Shown one piece after another: positions 35,847 to 49,262 of a stretch of 64,000 nt of DNA; the stretch's first letter is position 1; the number at the start of each line of letters is the position of its first letter. This DNA comes from Naegleria gruberi (taxonomy: Eukaryota): the NCBI GenBank assembly GCA_000004985.1, contig GG738850.1, one strand, 5' to 3'. The notes under the pieces were generated by a model that was given only the letters and a program-made list of their open reading frames with translations, had not been told where the DNA came from and ran no database searches. The position numbers and the translations under genes were made by a program.

Positions 35847-37174
35847 ATGAAACGACGAGCAAGTAGGAATAATCTGCAAGACAATAAAAAAGTGGAGACT
35901 CCTAAAAAGAGTACACCACCAGTAGTAGTGGATAATATTTCGGATCAGGCTTTATCAGAGTCAAGTATAAAAGCAATACAAAAATTAGCTGGACAATTAG
36001 CGAGCGGGAAGAAACTTTTATTTGTGACTGGAGCAGGTATTTCGCAAATATCAGGTAAATATTTATTATAATTGATGGATACGAACTGTTTTGGAATTTT
36101 ATATTGGATATAAATTATTTTGAAATTAATTTAGGAATTCCAACATATAGAGGAGATGCCAATTCAATTTGGTCGAATCATATTCTTGATATGGGTACTA
36201 GGAAAATGTTTCAAAGGGATGAATTACATTGGTACAATTCATTTTGGTTGACAACCCATCACAAGAGAGAATATTTTGTTGCCAAACCAAATGAAGGACA
36301 TTTAGCTATTGCGAGATTGAGTAAATTATGTAATTTGAGATGTATTACACAGAATATTGATCATTTACATTCAAAAACATCTCTATCACCATCCCATATA
36401 ATAGAGGTTCATGGTAGATTAGGTCTTTATAAGTGTATTAATTCTAGAAAAAAGAATCCTTGTCCATATGCCAAAACACATAGTATTGATACAGTACAAT
36501 TGGAAAAGCATAGTAATGATTATCATCAAAATAAGCCCACTTTTACCATCAAATCAGTACCAAAATGTCCCTTCTGTAAAACTCTTCTCCTTCCACAAGC
36601 CCTCTTATTTGATGAGAAATATGAATCACATGATTTTTATCAATGGAGAAAAGCACTGCAATGGATTGCTGATTGTGAAGTCATTTGTTTTGTAGGAACA
36701 TCATTTTCTGTAGGTGTTACAGCTGAATGCTTGTCAATTGCCAAGGACAATGACAAAACCCTCTACAATTTTAATATTAGGGTAGATAAGGAGGTTAAAA
36801 ATCTTCCAGGAATGTATCATATTGTAGGAAAATCTGAAATTTCACTTCCATTCTTATTTAATACATTGGTGGAAATTGGGAAGAGTCAACATTTATCTCA
36901 CAAGCCACGAATGCACTTTTATTCGAGCCAATATTCAAGTACACACAAAGTGGTGAAAAGAACTAATCTGAAAAGACTACAAAGAAACAGTAAAGTCATT
37001 CACAGTGATGATGAGCAACAGCAGCCTGTTGAAGAGCATGAATATGATAGTGACCATGAGAGAATCTCTAAAAAGATCAAATTCAAGGAGTACTCTTCCA
37101 GTGATGATGGTGCTAGTTCTAGTGAGGAAGGAGAAACTGAGGAAGAATTTGACGATTCCGATGAGGATTATTAA
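35847..37174 (+). CDS. Sir2-family NAD-dependent protein deacetylase (sirtuin) with an acidic Ser/Asp/Glu-rich C-terminal tail
   Basis: Two exons, 35847..36054 and 36135..37174, with an 80-nt intron (GTAAAT..TTTAG) in phase 1. The Rossmann motif GAGISQISG|IPTYRG spans the junction. Other motifs are QNIDHLH, HG and a zinc-binding CxxC..CPFC. The tail is ...SSDDGASSSEEGETEEEFDDSDEDY. Confidence 0.7.
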
Positions 37175-37435
37175 AAGAGCATGCTATAGAAACAAATATC
37201 TGAACCACACTACAGTAAGCTTTGTAAACAACTCCAATTTCCTTATAGTAACATTGCCAATCTCGCTAAAATTTCTGTTTTTAAATTTTCCACAAGCAAT
37301 TGCCCGGAGCGAGTTGTGTTTCTTCGCGCTGATTATTTTAAAGCAAAAGAACCAAAAAGAAGTGAATCTTAACAATTTTTCAAACTCAAAAAAAAGAGAA
37401 GCAAACAACAAACACATACAACTTTCATAACAAAA

Positions 37436-38629
37436 ATGCAACAAGTTCATTTATGGCTCCGTGATGAAGTTAAACCATTCGAACAACGTACAGCTTTGAC
37501 TCCTTCCGATGCTGAAAAGTTGATCAAGGAATTTAATTTTAAAATTACAGTTGAAAAATCTGTTACTCGTGCCTTTGATGATGAAGAATATGTTAAAGTT
37601 GGTTGTCAATTAGTTGAATCAAATTCATGGATTACTCAAGCACCAAAACTTGAAGAAAATGATAATTTCTATATTTTGGGATTGAAAGAATTACCACTCG
37701 GAAATACTCAATTAGGTGATATTCAAGTTCCACACTTACTTTCTCAACGTCATATTTTCTTTGCTCACTGTTTCAAGAGACAATCTGATTGGAAAGATAC
37801 AATGAGTAGATTTGTTCAAGCTGAACCAAGACCAGGTCAAATTCTTGACTTGGAATTCCTTAATTTAGATAATGGTAGAAGAGTTGCTGCTTTTGGTTAT
37901 GCAGCTGGTTTTAATGGAATGGCAATGGGTTTACTTACTTATTGTAAACAAAAATTACATTCAAACGATTTGGAAGTTTTGAATGAAATTGTTAAACCAT
38001 TCAAGAATAGAACTGAACTTGTTAATCATATTAAGGATTTACTTTCTAAATTAGATCATACACCAAAATGTTTAGTTTTAGGAGCATTGGGTAGATGTGG
38101 AAGTGGAAGTGTTAAATGTGCTGAATTATGTGGAATTCCAGAAAGTCATTTAATTAAATGGGATTTGAATGAAACCAAAGCAGGTGGACCATTCCCACAA
38201 TTATCAACAGATGTTGATATTCTAGTTAATGATATTTATTTGAGTGGTGAAATTAAACCATTCTTAACAATGGAAATGGCACAAAAAGGTGATCGTAGAA
38301 TGAGTGTTTTCATTGATGTTTCATGTGATGTTACAAATCCATTCAATCCATTCCCAATTAATAATCAAGTTACAACATTTGATAGACCAGTTAGAAGAGT
38401 TGATAATACTAATAATCTTCCATTAGATGTTATTGCAATTGATCATTTACCAACAATGACTCCACAAGAATCATCAGATGAATTCTCAAATGCTTTGGTT
38501 ACTTATTTGGCTGAATTGAGAAATGTTAATTTTTCAAATGAACAAGGTGAAACTGAAGGTATTAGAGTTTGGTTACGTGCAAATCAATTATTTGAAAAGA
38601 AAGTTCAAGAATTTAAACAAGAATTGTAA
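37436..38629 (+). CDS. Saccharopine dehydrogenase (NAD+, L-lysine-forming), fungal LYS1-type
   Basis: 397-aa single-exon ORF. It is collinear with yeast Lys1: HLWLRDEVKPFEQRTALTP, FAHCFKRQSDWKDTMSRF, LDLEFLNLDNGRRVAAFGYAAGFNGMA, LGALGRCGSGSVKCAELCGIP, KWDLNETKAGGPF and IDHLPTM. Confidence 0.7.
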   Translation: MQQVHLWLRDEVKPFEQRTALTPSDAEKLIKEFNFKITVEKSVTRAFDDEEYVKVGCQLVESNSWITQAPKLEENDNFYILGLKELPLGNTQLGDIQVPHLLSQRHIFFAHCFKRQSDWKDTMSRFVQAEPRPGQILDLEFLNLDNGRRVAAFGYAAGFNGMAMGLLTYCKQKLHSNDLEVLNEIVKPFKNRTELVNHIKDLLSKLDHTPKCLVLGALGRCGSGSVKCAELCGIPESHLIKWDLNETKAGGPFPQLSTDVDILVNDIYLSGEIKPFLTMEMAQKGDRRMSVFIDVSCDVTNPFNPFPINNQVTTFDRPVRRVDNTNNLPLDVIAIDHLPTMTPQESSDEFSNALVTYLAELRNVNFSNEQGETEGIRVWLRANQLFEKKVQEFKQEL

Positions 38630-44948: not shown

Positions 44949-46742
44949 TTACTTCTTCTCAAAGGAAATCAGTAATGGTTCTCTTGGTCTCAAAGTTACA
45001 TGATTATCGAGATGTAATTTGTAATTTGGTGATATTGAAAATTTGTAATGTTTAACTAAAAGTGCTAAACAGAAACAACTTTCAATCTCTGCAAAATATC
45101 TTCCCTGACAAATACGATTTCCAATTCCAAAACCAGAGAATGCAAATGGATTTTGATGAATTTCAATATGTGGATTGAAAATTGAGAGTGGAATTGTTTG
45201 AGATTTGAATTCTTCAATTGTAATACTTTGAGCAATAGTTGAATCTTTCCTTTTAAGGAATCTTTCTGGAATGAATTCATTAGGTTGAGGCCAATATCTT
45301 TCATCTTTGTGAATATCTAACCATGAAGCAGCTATTTGAGTTCCTTTTGGAATTGTAATATCTTTCCATTTAAATGTTTTTGTTACTTGTCGAGCAGCAA
45401 ATGCCACAACTGGATATAATCTTAAACTTTCTTTAACAACTGCTCTCAAATAATCCATTCTTCCCTCTTGATAATCTTCAAAATCAAATGTTTCCTTTCC
45501 ATATAAAGTTGGATAATCATGATCAATGAATTTATGAATTCGATCTTGAGCATCCTTATCAGTAGCTAATGAATATAATATAAATCCTAATGTTCTTGCA
45601 GTTGCTATTTAATAATTAATGTTTTTAAAGATGAATATTCATTGTAAACTTACTTTCATGTCCAGCAACAAGGAAAATGAAACAATTTGAAATAATTTCC
45701 TCATCAGTCATACTTTCATCTTTACTCCAATTTTCTCTTGCATTTAATAAGAGAGATAGAATATCAGAGTGAGGAGTTTCTTCTTCTTGATTTTTAGTTT
45801 TACGTTCATTAATAATATCATTAATGGATTTAGTGAATTGATTGGAAATTAATTGAGCTGGTTTATGTGGAAATATTCCAACATGTTGTCTAATCCATTT
45901 AGGAAATATATTGTAAACTGGAAGAATTCCAAATAATTTCTGAGTTTGAACAGTTAAACTATCTTTTTGATTAATATTAAAAGAATTGAAATCATAATTA
46001 AATCCAGCCAATCCAATAACCTCTACAAATATTTTACAATAATACATTACAATATTATATCATTCAATATTATATATCAATATTAAACATCAATATATTC
46101 CAATTAATACTAACCTAAAGTAAGATTTGAAAAATCCACTTCAATATTTCTCATTAAAAGATTCTTTTCAATATTTGGTATTAAAAATCTATTCATACAA
46201 TCAATTGTAACTTTTGCAACAATTTTCAATGATTGAGGAGCAAAAGCAGGATCCAATAATTTTCTCTGACGATGCCAAAATTCATAATCATTTTCAACAA
46301 ATATATTTGATCCACCAAATAGTTCAATAACACTTTCTTTCAAATCAGGTAATTTGTTTGTAATCTTTCTAGTTGCCATTTCTTTTAGAAATAATGAATC
46401 ACCAATTACAATCATTCCAGTACTAACAATTCCCAATACAACTTTATACATTTTATCATTTCCACTCTCTTTCATAAATCTTTCAAATATTAGAGGTGAT
46501 AAATTCTCTCCAAATCTTGTTCCCCACTCTGATGGTATTAAAAACTTTGGTAGAAATTGACATAGAATAGGTGGTATGAATTGACATCGTCCAATTTTAA
46601 TAAATTCATACTCTTTACATATTATTAAATATTTACAATATAAATAAAGCAGAAATAGTATTATTAATATTAAAAAACATGTCAATGATAAATAAATAAT
46701 ATCTAACAAGGCGGAGGAGGTGGATGATAGTAATGTACTCAT
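44949..46742 (-). CDS. Cytochrome P450 monooxygenase
   Basis: Three exons on the minus strand: 46742..46115, 46022..45654 and 45604..44949. Introns are 92 nt (GTTAGT donor) and 49 nt (GTAAGT). The N-terminal membrane anchor is LLDIIYLSLTCFLILIILFLLYLY. The I-helix AGHE|TT is split by intron 2. The K-helix is ESLRLYPVV, and the heme loop is FAFSGFGIGNRICQGRYFAE. Confidence 0.7.
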
Positions 46743-46923
46743 CAATATGTGATTGATTTAACGTTATTTTTTTCAGGATGAGATTTTAAAGACCTCTTTA
46801 AGATCATTTTAATATTTAAATGGTTGAATATCATATGTTCTTGATGTAAACACGTGTTTTGAAATGATGTAATGGTTTTATCTATTTAGGAATAATTGGA
46901 AGAAATGTTTTTATTGTAATTCA

Positions 46924-48296
46924 TTAAACAAGTTGGAATGAAATGTTTGAAGTTGCATATTTCTTTTCAGTATTCTTCTTCTTATTCGTTTGTTTCTTCT
47001 TATTAGTATTCTTATTATTATTGGCATTATTTGATTTTTTAGAATTTTCACTACTCTTTGCATTGTTATTTGCATTGGAATTATTTGATGACTGTTCATT
47101 ATTTTGAGTAATAGTACTTTCTTTTGGTGTTTGTTTCTTTGTTTTCATCTGGTCAACTAGACTTGAAATATTTCTTTGAGTTGAATTTTTATGTGCCATC
47201 TTTCTTAAACGAGCTTGATTCTTTTCTTTGGCATATGAAACTTGTTGATCCATTGAGGTTTTATCACCATACATCATACCCATAAATGTTGATCTCATAT
47301 TTAAAAATTCTTCTCTTTCCTTATCAGTTGCATTTGGATCCAATTTTGCTAATTCTTTAAGAGAGGTAAAACTTTTACCTTTCAACACATCTGATTGTTT
47401 AGATTCTTTTGAATCATTTGCTCCATTATTTTCTCCATTATTATTAGTAGTAGTAGTAGAATTATTTGATGGAATTGTTGAAATAACTTGAAATGCTTCA
47501 TCATTTGAAAGTTTACATTGAGATTTAATCCAAGATTCAAAATCATCTGATGACATAATTTCATATAATTTGTAAATAGATGCATAACCAACATAGGCAT
47601 CAAATGCTGCATATCTAACAAAATCATCATTTTGTTTTGCATTCTTAGTCATTGTTTCCATTTTAAGTAATTCCAAAGCAAGTGATTTAAGTGAAACTAA
47701 AGAAGAACCAAATAAATGGTATTGACTTGAAACAATTGCTAAATCTACTAAATTTGGTATTACTTGTTCTTTTAAATCTGTTTTTTGTGTGAATAAATGT
47801 TTAATATCGTTACAAACACCAACTCCAAGTTTAACAGTTTTTGATTGTAAAAATTCAATTAATTCATTTGGAATTTCTTTTAAATTTTCAATTTGAAAAA
47901 CAAAACAAATTCCTGTAATGAAATTTGAATATTCGAAATTTTCCAATCTTTTCTATATTCCGCATCAAATCCAATTGGAATTAAATTTGAAAGTTTAAAT
48001 TCTTTAGAAATTTCCATATTATAAATTGATTCTACAAGTGATGGAACTTTTTTCATTAATTCTCTTGCATTACTATATATAATAAAGAAGGGTGTTTTAT
48101 CAGTTGGTTCAAAACTTTTAAATATTTTAAATTTGTTTACAATTTCATTACAAATAAATGTTGATATTTCTTTAGAAACGAAAGAATTATCAATATTTAA
48201 TTGAATTTTCTTTGATGATTTTTCATTTCCTTCTCTTTTTCTCTTTTTATCGGAATTATCGGAGGCTTGTGTTGATGAAGGCTTTGAATTTTGCAT
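46924..48296 (-). CDS. DnaQ-like 3'-5' exonuclease domain protein (WRN-exonuclease / EXD-like) with a Lys/Asn-rich C-terminal tail. The coding frame is broken once.
   Basis: Two overlapping minus-strand ORFs, 48296..47883 and 47946..46924, lie in different frames. Exo motif I (PIGFDAEYRKDWK) is in the first ORF. The ALIQLC-like block (ITGICFVFQIENLKEIPNELIEFLQSKTVKLGVGVCNDIKHL) and motif III (YAAFDAYVGYASIYKLYE) are in the second. No GT...AG intron can join them. A single-A change in the A4 run at about 47939-47942 would restore one frame. Confidence 0.5.
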
Positions 48297-48512
48297 TTTT
48301 TTTCAATTTATTCAATAAATTAATTGATACCAAGCCTACTAACTAGGCTGACATGATGATAATAATGCAAGTAATAAATTTATTGGAAGGCTTTTTGCAT
48401 GACGAATCAGAGAGAATTGAACAGAGTGCAGAGAGATGCCACGTGTACTCTCAAAAAAGCCTTTTTTTAAAAACTCCAGAAAAAAAACAAATCCACGACT
48501 ATTCAATATAAT

Positions 48513-49196
48513 ATGGCTGGATCTAAACAAAAGAAGCGTGTTACTACCAATGCCACTATAATGAGAAATCATTATATTGCAGTTGGTGTTGTTAATGTAT
48601 GTTGTTGAAATATGTTCATTCCGAATCAAATAACTCTTTTATATTAAATTACATCATGATGATGGTGATATAAATGATATAATCAATCAATGGATTAATA
48701 GTTAATTTATTTAATTTATGTATTATATAATTTTGCAAACATTTCGACATTTGAATGGATTGCCTTTATTTCTCTTCTTCTAGGATATGGATTTTGTCTC
48801 AACTCTCTATATAAATATTCCAAGCCAGTTGAATATACTACAAGTGAAGGAAAAGTAGTAATGGATGTTAATGATTTAAGTGATGTTGCAGGATCACTAA
48901 CTGAATATACATTTGATATTATTTATGTTGAATGTTTTGTTCAATTAACTTCAATTATTTCTAATTGGTTCTATTTATTATTATTAATCATTCCTGGATT
49001 TGCTATTTTCAAATTATATAATTCAATTATTAAACCTTATTTATCAATGAATAAGGCTCAACAAGAATATGCCAATTCTCAACAACAACCTGAAATGTCA
49101 GATAAGAAAAAGAAGAAAATGGAAAGACTTGAAAAGAAAAATCAACAAAATATGCAAAGAATGAGAATTAGACCAAATTCAAATGATGATGAATAA
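48513..49196 (+). CDS. Small membrane protein, possibly TMEM208-like, in two exons
   Basis: Exon 1 starts at ATG 48513 (MAGSKQKKRVTTNATIMRNHYIAVG..). Its donor is either GTGTTG at 48586 (phase 1) or GTATGT at 48597. Exon 2 is 48784..49196 (…YGFCLNSLYKYSKPVEYTTSEGKVVMDVNDLSDVAGSLTEYTFDIIYVECFVQLTSIISNWFYLLLLIIPGFAIFKLYNS…KKKKKMERLEKKNQQNMQRMRIRPNSNDDE). The exon-1 junction and the family call are both uncertain. Confidence 0.35.
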
Positions 49197-49262
49197 ATTA
49201 TTAATGTTTTGAAATAATTATTAAATATGGTAATTTTAGATATTTAAATATTCAAGAAAAAA

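What the first reader, a model, noticed from the sequence alone, without database searches (positions are those of the whole stretch)
47880..47950. WRN-like 3'-5' exonuclease gene is split by a frame break in an A4 homopolymer
Exo motif I (GFDAEY) and the downstream ALIQLC-like and YxxxD blocks lie in two different minus-strand frames that overlap at 47883-47946. No GT...AG pair can join them. Inserting one A in the aaaa run (plus-strand tttt at 47939-47942) gives a continuous GFDAEYRKDWKNFEYSNFITGICFVFQIENLK that aligns with WRN-exo spacing (GFDMEW..12-14 aa..ALIQLC). It is either an assembly or sequencing indel, a recent pseudogenisation, or a site needing transcript-level correction.
Basis: seen in the sequence. 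Interest (0 to 1): 0.5.

Follow-up and report, generated by a model that had tools for sequence, protein, structure and literature searches.

The report
One-base break splits Naegleria exonuclease gene

Summary
On the minus strand, ORF1 (48296-47880, ending ...GFDAEYRKDWKISNIQISLQEFVLFFKLKI*) and ORF2 (47946-46924) are both open across 47952-47883, in frames one base apart. The window is Naegleria gruberi, where the gene is annotated as two adjacent "predicted proteins" (NAEGRDRAFT_63332 and NAEGRDRAFT_46379).

With one base restored, it encodes a 457-aa WRN/EXD2-like DEDDy 3'-5' exonuclease. That protein is collinear with an intact 588-aa single-ORF orthologue in N. fowleri, found in three independent assemblies, and with intact Willaertia and Acrasis orthologues.

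A profile of non-Naegleria homologues scores 124 bits for that repair and 149-151 bits for a base added anywhere in 47921-47907. No intron, slippery site or conserved recoding signal exists.

The gene has no other lesion, keeps all catalytic residues and shows dN/dS of 0.2-0.5 on both sides. The break is therefore either a consensus or single-allele artefact or a very recent frameshift. I could not decide between these without reads. N. lovaniensis has a different one-base break 25 codons downstream, hidden by a predicted 119-nt "intron". Interest is low.

The parts
46924..48296 (-). Whole gene. It is 1373 nt as sequenced. With one base restored it is 1374 nt, i.e. 457 codons plus stop, collinear with N. 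fowleri FDP41_005802.
   Evidence: (the repaired CDS has no internal stop and aligns end to end with Nf and repaired Nl).
47880..48296 (-). ORF1, which is gene model NAEGRDRAFT_63332 (XP_002681503.1, 138 aa). It holds the N-terminal region, Exo I and strand beta2. The last residues (from about L/Q to KLKI*) are out-of-frame read-through.
47955..47972 (-). Exo I motif GFDAEY (catalytic Asp and Glu).
   Evidence: D56 and E58 are invariant in alignment A1.
47919..47942 (-). Strand beta2, KISNIQIS, read in the ORF1 frame. It contains the family-invariant Gln codon CAA at 47927-47925.
   Evidence: Q69 invariant; strand at residues 65-72 of the model.
47939..47942 (-). It is not the break site.
   Evidence: the repair placed here scores 26-27 bits below the best repairs.
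47907..47921 (-). Interval that contains the missing base (minus-strand TCATTACAGGAATTT). It is the beta2-beta3 hairpin turn. The position cannot be resolved further.
   Evidence: DNA alignment with Nl and Nf puts the 1-nt gap here; HMM score plateau of 149-151 bits.
47893..47910 (-). Strand beta3, ICFVFQ, read in the ORF2 frame. It corresponds to ICFVFG in N. fowleri, ICFIFS in Willaertia and CYLFHV in WRN.
46924..47946 (-). ORF2 (340 codons from the TTG). It holds beta3, Exo II, Exo III and the conserved C-terminal extension. The annotated model NAEGRDRAFT_46379 (XP_002681502.1, 242 aa) covers only 47652-46924.
47794..47826 (-). Exo II motif GVGVCNDIKHL (catalytic Asp).
   Evidence: (D109 invariant).
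47593..47613 (-). Exo III motif YAAFDAY (Y-x3-D, the DEDDy signature).
   Evidence: (Y174 and D178 invariant).
46927..47385 (-). Naegleria-conserved C-terminal extension (LKGKSFTSLKELAKLDPNATDKEREEFLNMRSTFMGMMYGDK ... YAKEKNQARLRKMAHKNSTQR ... ISFQLV). Its function is unknown.
   Evidence: the terminal hydrophobic motif is shared with distant homologues.

Best explanation
The locus is the N. gruberi orthologue of a heterolobosean WRN/EXD2-type DEDDy 3'-5' exonuclease, a single-exon gene of 457 codons. In this sequence one base is missing inside 47921-47907, in the turn between strands beta2 and beta3 of the exonuclease fold. Translation from the ATG at 48296 therefore runs out of frame and stops at 47882-47880, and annotators produced two unrelated-looking 'predicted proteins'. 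The shown steps are gene identity, fold, the position of the break, the absence of any intron or recoding signal, and intactness of the rest of the gene; for these I am about 0.9 confident. The inferred step is that the break is not part of how the gene works. I think it most likely reflects a miscalled base in the consensus, or one null allele of a heterozygous diploid picked up by the assembly. On that reading the organism still makes the full-length enzyme, which would remove nucleotides from 3' ends using the two-metal DEDDy site, as WRN-exo and EXD2 do. The confidence of 0.55 given here is for this last, inferred step.
For: Organism and split annotation. Orthologues: N. fowleri has an intact 588-aa single ORF in three independent assemblies, and Willaertia magna (382 aa) and Acrasis kona are intact and pass Pfam PF01612. 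Break position: the DNA alignment places a 1-nt gap in Ng between ATTCAAATTTC and TGTTTTGT, and the HMM scan gives 149-151 bits at 47921-47907 against 123-124 bits at the A4 run. Fold: AlphaFold2 on the repaired domain gives pLDDT 93 and pTM 0.90, with strands at residues 51-59, 65-72 and 75-80. Foldseek's top hits are WRN exonuclease (2FBX, E 2.6e-10) and then EXD2. The family profile hits WRN-exo at 1.6e-38 and EXD2 at 6.4e-36. Young or artefactual lesion: one inserted base yields a stop-free 457-codon ORF. All invariant residues are kept (D, E, Q, D, Y, D). dN/dS against N. fowleri is 0.27 overall, 0.47 upstream and 0.21 downstream of the break. Naegleria is described as a mainly heterozygous diploid (PMC9928731). 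An independent near-identical N. gruberi-like contig differs from the window by three indels and one substitution in 809 nt next to this gene, so small indel discrepancies are common here.
Against: I found no independent N. gruberi sequence or transcript across the site, so error versus real mutation is untested. The site is not a long homopolymer, which weakens the case for a typical length miscall. The N. lovaniensis reference has its own one-base break only 25 codons away. Two independent errors in the same gene would be a coincidence. That could instead mean the gene is really being lost outside N. fowleri.
Confidence: 0.55

Rival explanations
1. This is a genuine, fixed, very recent frameshift. 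The exonuclease gene is a young pseudogene in strain NEG-M. At most it yields a truncated 138-aa product, and possibly a C-terminal fragment from the ATG at 47661 or 47652.
For: The break is in the deposited sequence and in both deposited gene models. It is not in an error-prone long homopolymer. N. lovaniensis also carries a frame break in the same domain, which would fit relaxed constraint outside N. fowleri. NEG-M is a long-cultured clonal laboratory strain (my own background knowledge, not checked here).
Against: There is only one lesion in 1.37 kb of AT-rich sequence, where about 9% of random codons would be stops. All catalytic and invariant residues are retained. dN/dS is well below 1 on both sides of the break. 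Any inactivation must therefore be very recent.
Confidence: 0.38
2. The missing base lies in the A4 run at 47939-47942, giving GFDAEYRKDWKNFEYSNFITGICFVFQ.
For: An added A there does restore a continuous ORF, and short homopolymers are plausible indel sites.
Against: This repair scores 124.3 bits, against 149-151 bits for repairs at 47921-47907. It loses the invariant Gln and strand beta2. It matches N. fowleri KITTIQISIYS at 2 of 11 positions, against 7 of 11 for KISNIQISITG, one of the equally scoring repairs in 47921-47907 (my own counts). The DNA alignment shows frame-1 codons ATT CAA ATT TC conserved with both orthologues downstream of the A4 run.
Confidence: 0.02
3. The break is bypassed by recoding: programmed -1 ribosomal frameshifting, or transcript-level insertion by slippage or editing.
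For: The required shift is -1, and both frames stay open over 70 nt. A near-slippery G_TTT_TTC lies at 47901-47895.
Against: There is no canonical X_XXY_YYZ heptamer in frame 1 anywhere in the overlap (my reading). A shift at G_TTT_TTC gives ...EFVLFFQIEN, which scores about 9 bits below the plateau. The N. fowleri, Willaertia and Acrasis orthologues are plain uninterrupted ORFs, and the N. lovaniensis break is at a different place, so nothing is conserved. An A4 or T5 run is too short for efficient polymerase slippage (my own knowledge). I know of no report of nuclear insertion editing in Naegleria (my own knowledge).
Confidence: 0.03
4. The two frames are joined by an intron, canonical or non-canonical.
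For: N. gruberi has spliceosomal introns, and the N. lovaniensis annotators modelled a 119-nt GT-AG intron here.
Against: The only frame-restoring GT-AG pairs in N. gruberi remove 176-287 nt, including Exo II. The 44 nt between GFDAEY and ICFVF are homologous coding sequence for beta2; N. fowleri has 48 nt there, so no room is left for an intron. The N. lovaniensis 'intron' removes sequence that is coding in N. fowleri and reads through in frame 0.
Confidence: 0.01

Closest known systems
WRN exonuclease domain (human 2FBT/2FBX, mouse 2E6L); Pfam PF01612 DNA_pol_A_exo1, DEDDy class
   Same: It has the same fold, with Foldseek E 2.6e-10 and TM 0.64/0.72. The family profile hits WRN-exo at E 1.6e-38. 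The motif order is the same: Exo I D-x-E, a beta2 strand with a conserved Gln, Exo II D, and Exo III Y-x3-D.
   Different: There is no RecQ helicase, RQC or HRDC part. The loop between Exo I and beta2 is 8 residues shorter than in WRN (my count). There is a Naegleria-specific C-terminal extension of about 190 aa. In this sequence the ORF is interrupted. Neither the single N. gruberi sequence nor the intact N. fowleri one reaches any Pfam PF01612 hit.
EXD2 (human, 6K17-6K1E)
   Same: The exonuclease domain is of the same subfamily (profile E 6.4e-36; Foldseek E 1e-7). The Acrasis kona orthologue is named 'EXD2' by its source.
   Different: The Naegleria proteins lack the Cys-rich C-terminal region seen in the longer homologues P0009, P0012, P0015 and P0022. 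They also lack the hydrophobic N-terminal segment of P0009 and P0022. Instead they have basic, low-complexity regions and a hydrophobic C-terminal tail. I have not shown orthology to EXD2.
N. fowleri FDP41_005802 (XP_044559762.1, 588 aa, '3'-5' exonuclease domain-containing protein')
   Same: It is the orthologue. It is 54% identical over 441 aligned codons and collinear from the N-terminal region to the C-terminal SFSLV/SFQLV tail.
   Different: It is an uninterrupted single ORF in three independent assemblies. It carries a roughly 40-aa low-complexity insert after Exo II that N. gruberi lacks.
N. lovaniensis C9374_011320 (XP_044554489.1, 512 aa)
   Same: It is the orthologue, and its reference sequence also has a one-base frame break inside the exonuclease domain.
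   Different: The break is at a different place, in FEFL|xSKTAK (TTA-ATTCAAAAAC against TTAAATTTAAAAAC in N. fowleri), 25 codons downstream. It is masked in the annotation by a 119-nt predicted intron that deletes beta2, beta3 and the following helix.

Membership tests
DEDDy 3'-5' exonuclease, WRN-exo/EXD2 type (PF01612) | Exo I motif with catalytic Asp and Glu (D-x-E) | tested here: met
   GFDAEY at 47972-47955. D56 and E58 are invariant in the 20-sequence alignment A1.
DEDDy 3'-5' exonuclease, WRN-exo/EXD2 type (PF01612) | Exo II catalytic Asp | tested here: met
   GVGVCNDIKHL at 47826-47794. D109 is invariant.
DEDDy 3'-5' exonuclease, WRN-exo/EXD2 type (PF01612) | Exo III Y-x3-D (the 'y' of DEDDy) | tested here: met
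   YAAFDAY at 47613-47593. Y174 and D178 are invariant.
DEDDy 3'-5' exonuclease, WRN-exo/EXD2 type (PF01612) | Significant sequence relationship to recognised members | tested here: met
   The repaired domain matches the Willaertia orthologue at E 2.2e-16 in a 1.84-billion-protein library. That protein and the Acrasis one pass the PF01612 gathering score (35.7 and 35.4 bits against 23.6). The family profile hits WRN-exo at 1.6e-38. The single sequence against PDB gives only E 0.002.
DEDDy 3'-5' exonuclease, WRN-exo/EXD2 type (PF01612) | Direct Pfam PF01612 hit at the gathering score | tested here: not met
   No PF01612 hit was found for ORF1, ORF2 or any repaired version, even at E up to 10. 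The intact N. fowleri orthologue also fails, so this is a sensitivity limit for the divergent Naegleria clade and not an effect of the frame break.
DEDDy 3'-5' exonuclease, WRN-exo/EXD2 type (PF01612) | DnaQ-like alpha/beta fold with the beta1-beta2-beta3 sheet | tested here: met
   The AF2 model of the repaired domain has pLDDT 93 and pTM 0.90. Its best structural matches are WRN-exo, EXD2, Rrp6 and NrnC.
DEDDy 3'-5' exonuclease, WRN-exo/EXD2 type (PF01612) | Continuous ORF encoding the whole domain | tested here: not met
   Exo I and beta2 are in one frame, and beta3, Exo II and Exo III are in another. As sequenced, the gene cannot give an active domain.
DEDDy 3'-5' exonuclease, WRN-exo/EXD2 type (PF01612) | Metal-dependent 3'-5' exonuclease activity | not testable with these tools
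   This needs recombinant protein.
WRN proper (RecQ helicase with N-terminal exonuclease) | RecQ helicase, RQC and HRDC domains fused to the exonuclease | tested here: not met
   No Pfam domain was found in the 457-aa repaired protein or in the 588-aa N. fowleri orthologue. The C-terminal part is a short Naegleria-specific extension.
EXD2 proper | N-terminal membrane anchor and C-terminal Cys-rich (HNH-like) region | tested here: not met
   Alignment A1 shows the Cys-rich block only in P0009, P0012, P0015 and P0022. The Naegleria, Willaertia and Acrasis proteins lack it. This rests on inspection, not a dedicated transmembrane or HNH search.
Programmed -1 ribosomal frameshift site | Slippery heptamer X_XXY_YYZ in the upstream frame, conserved in orthologues | tested here: not met
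   There is no such heptamer in 47952-47883 (reading). The orthologues are unbroken ORFs or are broken elsewhere.
Spliceosomal intron | GT-AG (or AT-AC with U12 consensus) boundaries whose removal joins the frames and keeps the domain | tested here: not met
   Only the 176-, 263- and 287-nt GT-AG candidates restore the frame, and all delete Exo II. The AT-AC pairs lack a U12 donor consensus. The whole stretch is homologous coding sequence.

The most novel reading that the evidence does not exclude
Both frame breaks are real. N. gruberi and N. lovaniensis, the two non-pathogenic species, would then have independently and very recently inactivated the same WRN/EXD2-like exonuclease within a 75-nt stretch of its beta-sheet core, while N. 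fowleri keeps it intact. That would mean lineage-specific, ongoing loss of a DNA-end-processing enzyme otherwise conserved across Heterolobosea, or possibly survival of only the conserved C-terminal part as a separate product.
Probability: 0.12. Interest if true: 0.35.

Novelty: new member of a known kind. Interest (0 to 1): 0.12.

Why it matters
The main value is to annotation. Two orphan N. gruberi "predicted proteins" (XP_002681503.1 and XP_002681502.1) are halves of one WRN/EXD2-type exonuclease gene. The N. lovaniensis model C9374_011320 also contains a spurious intron that hides a similar break. Correcting both would give a clean heterolobosean family: exonuclease domain, conserved C-terminal extension and hydrophobic tail. 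If the breaks turned out to be real in both species, they would be a small example of parallel recent gene loss. No new mechanism is implied.

Tried and rejected
1. Intron rescue. I enumerated all GT-AG, GC-AG and AT-AC pairs. None keeps the domain.

2. My first guess was that the shift lay in the T4/T5 runs (47905-47896), giving ...EFVLFFQIEN. I rejected it because it scores 139-147 bits against the 149-151-bit plateau, and the orthologues have ICFVF.

3. Independent N. gruberi sequence across the site. Exact-product look-ups failed for both annotated models, ORF2 from the TTG and from the ATG at 47661, and an internal ORF1 start. Two protein word-index searches found only the two annotated halves. 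A back-translated scan and a degenerate Exo II DNA pattern against JGI metagenomes found nothing. The neighbouring TMEM208 gene did recover an N. gruberi-like ENA contig (L006), but that contig stops 133 nt short of the gene's ATG.

4. Two-base deletion repairs. None reached the top 25 scores.

5. Direct Pfam assignment. No PF01612 hit for any Naegleria sequence.

6. Other frame-broken genes in the window, as a gauge of assembly quality. The overlapping-frame ORF pairs I scanned with Pfam belong to different genes such as SIR2 and AlaDh/PNT, or gave no domain hit. No rate could be estimated.

7. dN/dS cannot date the lesion, because dS between N. gruberi and N. fowleri is saturated (1.5).

Full report
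**What is in the sequence**

On the minus strand, an ATG at 48296 opens a 138-codon ORF. It ends ...NLIPIGFDAEYRKDWKISNIQISLQEFVLFFKLKI and stops at TAA 47882-47880. A second frame is open from 47952 (first TTG at 47946) to the stop at 46924-46926. This second frame is the one reached by adding one base.

Exo I (GFDAEY, 47972-47955) is in the first frame. Exo II (GVGVCNDIKHL, 47826-47794) and Exo III (YAAFDAY, 47613-47593) are in the second. With the local base composition about 9% of random codons are stops, so stop-free runs of 340 and 138 codons have probabilities of about 4e-15 and 1e-6.

**Source and annotation**

The C-terminal 242 residues are identical to the N. gruberi predicted protein XP_002681502.1 (NAEGRDRAFT_46379). 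ORF1 is identical to XP_002681503.1 (NAEGRDRAFT_63332). The two are adjacent models on a 707,703-nt contig. The reference annotation therefore treats one gene as two unrelated proteins. The second model starts only at Met 47652, downstream of Exo II.

**Relatives**

An exhaustive HMMER search with the repaired domain and a follow-up search found these orthologues:

- N. fowleri FDP41_005802, 588 aa. It is a plain single ORF in three independent assemblies from NCBI, Logan and ENA.
- N. lovaniensis C9374_011320.
- Willaertia magna ABK040_004961, 382 aa, a single ORF.
- Acrasis kona 'EXD2'.

The Willaertia and Acrasis proteins pass the Pfam PF01612 gathering score. No Naegleria protein does, not even the intact N. 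fowleri one.

A profile of 20 family members hits the WRN exonuclease domain at E 1.6e-38 and EXD2 at 6.4e-36. An AlphaFold2 model of the repaired N. gruberi domain has pLDDT 93 and pTM 0.90. Its best structural matches are WRN exonuclease (2FBX, E 2.6e-10) and then EXD2. There is no helicase part and no EXD2-type Cys-rich C-terminus.

**Where the break is**

Any one-base insertion in the 70-nt overlap restores a 457-codon ORF with identical spacing. Spacing therefore cannot locate the break, and four other lines of evidence were used.

- **Protein comparison.** N. fowleri reads GFDAEYKGTNFKITTIQISIYSICFVFGIEKMK and Willaertia reads GFDCEYHPTTKVPTLIQISIHSICFIFSILK. The N. gruberi first frame gives KISNIQIS and the second gives ICFVFQIENLK.
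- **DNA alignment.** Against both Naegleria orthologues, the single-base gap in N. gruberi falls between ATTCAAATTTC and TGTTTTGT.
- **Profile scoring.** I built a profile from 22 non-Naegleria homologues and scored the protein obtained by inserting a base at every position of the overlap. The score is 123-124 bits in and around the A4 run. It climbs as NIQIS is brought into frame and plateaus at 149-151 bits for insertions between 47921 and 47907. It falls to 139-147 bits further downstream.
- **Invariant residues and the model.** In the 20-sequence alignment the Gln of NIQIS (CAA 47927-47925) is invariant, along with the D, E, D, Y and D catalytic residues. In the structural model the break sits in the two-residue turn between strand beta2 (residues 65-72) and strand beta3 (75-80).

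Within 47921-47907 (TCATTACAGGAATTT) the position cannot be resolved, because the turn residues are not conserved. No run there is longer than three bases.

**What the break is not**

It is not an intron. Only three GT-AG pairs restore the frame, and all of them delete Exo II. The 44 nt between GFDAEY and ICFVF are homologous coding sequence, where N. fowleri has 48 nt.

It is not conserved recoding. There is no X_XXY_YYZ heptamer in the upstream frame (my reading). The near-slippery G_TTT_TTC at 47901-47895 would give a product scoring about 9 bits below the plateau. The orthologues are either unbroken or broken elsewhere.

It is not an old pseudogene. One inserted base gives a stop-free 457-codon ORF collinear with N. 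fowleri from the N-terminal region to the SFQLV/SFSLV tail. All invariant residues are kept. dN/dS against N. fowleri is 0.27 overall, 0.47 upstream and 0.21 downstream of the break. dS is saturated, so this shows long-term constraint and does not give a date.

**Error or real mutation?**

This remains open. I found no independent N. gruberi sequence over the site.

An N. gruberi-like ENA metagenome contig (L006) covers the neighbouring TMEM208 gene. It differs from the window by one substitution, two single-base homopolymer length differences and a 7-nt indel in 809 nt. It ends 133 nt before the exonuclease ATG. This shows that small indel discrepancies, allelic or artefactual, are frequent in this neighbourhood. 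Naegleria is described as a mainly heterozygous diploid, and only one N. gruberi genome was used in the 2023 pangenome study (PMC9928731).

My estimates are as follows:

| Reading | Probability |
|---|---|
| Cells still carry an intact copy (consensus error or one null allele) | about 0.55 |
| Genuine fixed recent frameshift | about 0.38 |
| All other readings combined (A4-run site, recoding, intron) | about 0.06 |

The main argument for a real lesion is that the N. lovaniensis reference also has a one-base break in the same domain. That break lies 25 codons downstream (TTA-ATTCAAAAAC against TTAAATTTAAAAAC in N. fowleri). It is hidden in the annotation by a 119-nt GT-AG 'intron' that removes sequence which reads through in frame and is coding in N. 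fowleri. dN/dS between N. lovaniensis and N. fowleri is 0.30.

Public Illumina reads, RNA-seq and a nanopore re-assembly of N. gruberi exist (PMC12695648). An N. clarki proteome also exists (PMC12482156). Any of these would settle the question.

**How it would work if intact**

By homology, the protein is a two-metal DEDDy 3'-5' exonuclease acting on nucleic-acid 3' ends, as WRN-exo and EXD2 do. Its basic low-complexity stretches could be nuclear-localisation signals, but that is only my reading of the sequence. The substrate, and the role of the conserved C-terminal extension and tail, are unknown. As sequenced, ORF1 alone has only Exo I and beta2. No ATG precedes Exo II in ORF2. The two pieces therefore could not reconstitute an active enzyme.

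**Verdict**

This is a real but ordinary feature: a single-base frame break in an otherwise intact, conserved exonuclease gene. The novelty is limited to re-joining two orphan gene models and flagging a spurious intron in N. lovaniensis. Interest is 0.12.

Noticed in passing
L001:4457-4700 (N. lovaniensis PYSW02000004.1, gene C9374_011320): The annotated 119-nt GT-AG intron (GTAATCATTTC...CAGCAAAG) removes beta2, beta3 and the next helix of the exonuclease domain. The sequence actually reads through in frame 0 and then needs one extra base at about L001:4587 (TTA-ATTCAAAAAC against TTAAATTTAAAAAC in N. fowleri). With that base it gives a 552-aa protein collinear with N. fowleri.
   Followed up: partly
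window 46927-46944 (-), and the C-termini of P0004-P0008, P0011, P0019, P0024, P0028: The family shares a conserved extreme C-terminal hydrophobic motif: ISFQLV, SFSLV, IMLNVV, IMLNLV, IELNIF, IMLNII, IQFNFM, LELNIL and IQLNIV. It is usually preceded by an acidic or basic low-complexity stretch containing KKRKRE-like elements. It has no Pfam assignment and might be a targeting or interaction tail.
   Followed up: no
window 48429-49229 / L006 (ENA ERZ929261, run ERR1078381, PRJEB11402): A contig from a sample labelled 'metagenome' is 98.8% identical to the window. The differences are 1 substitution, A5 against A6, T5 against T4, and a 7-nt indel. It encodes an identical TMEM208 protein. An N. 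gruberi-like organism or allele is therefore present in that sample, and indels outnumber substitutions there.
   Followed up: partly
window 48861-49196 (+); L002:4293-5220: A TMEM208/SND2 gene (PF05620) lies next to the exonuclease gene in both N. gruberi (divergent orientation) and Willaertia magna (tandem). In N. fowleri and N. lovaniensis the flanking genes are instead an alpha/beta-hydrolase and a RING-finger gene.
   Followed up: no
window 45625-46745 (-): The downstream neighbour has a cytochrome P450 match (PF00067, E 6e-9) in ORF 45625-46047. The adjacent same-strand ORF 46110-46745 gave no Pfam hit, but I take it to be an upstream exon of the same gene across a short intron.
   Followed up: no
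alignment, after Exo II (N. gruberi 47794 downstream): N. fowleri and N. lovaniensis carry an Asn/Thr-rich low-complexity insert of about 40 aa between Exo II and the next strand. N. gruberi lacks it.
   Followed up: no
window 36059-38626 (+): A SIR2-family ORF (36059-37171) and an AlaDh/PNT-domain ORF (37373-38626) are bridged by a third open frame (36972-37427) that overlaps both. By domain content they look like separate genes and not a frame-broken one.
   Followed up: partly
(tool behaviour): The word-index protein search with the 277-aa repaired query returned only the C-terminal model and missed the 138-aa N-terminal model. That model is in the collection and about 130 aa identical. Negative results from that index therefore cannot be taken as exhaustive.
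   Followed up: no
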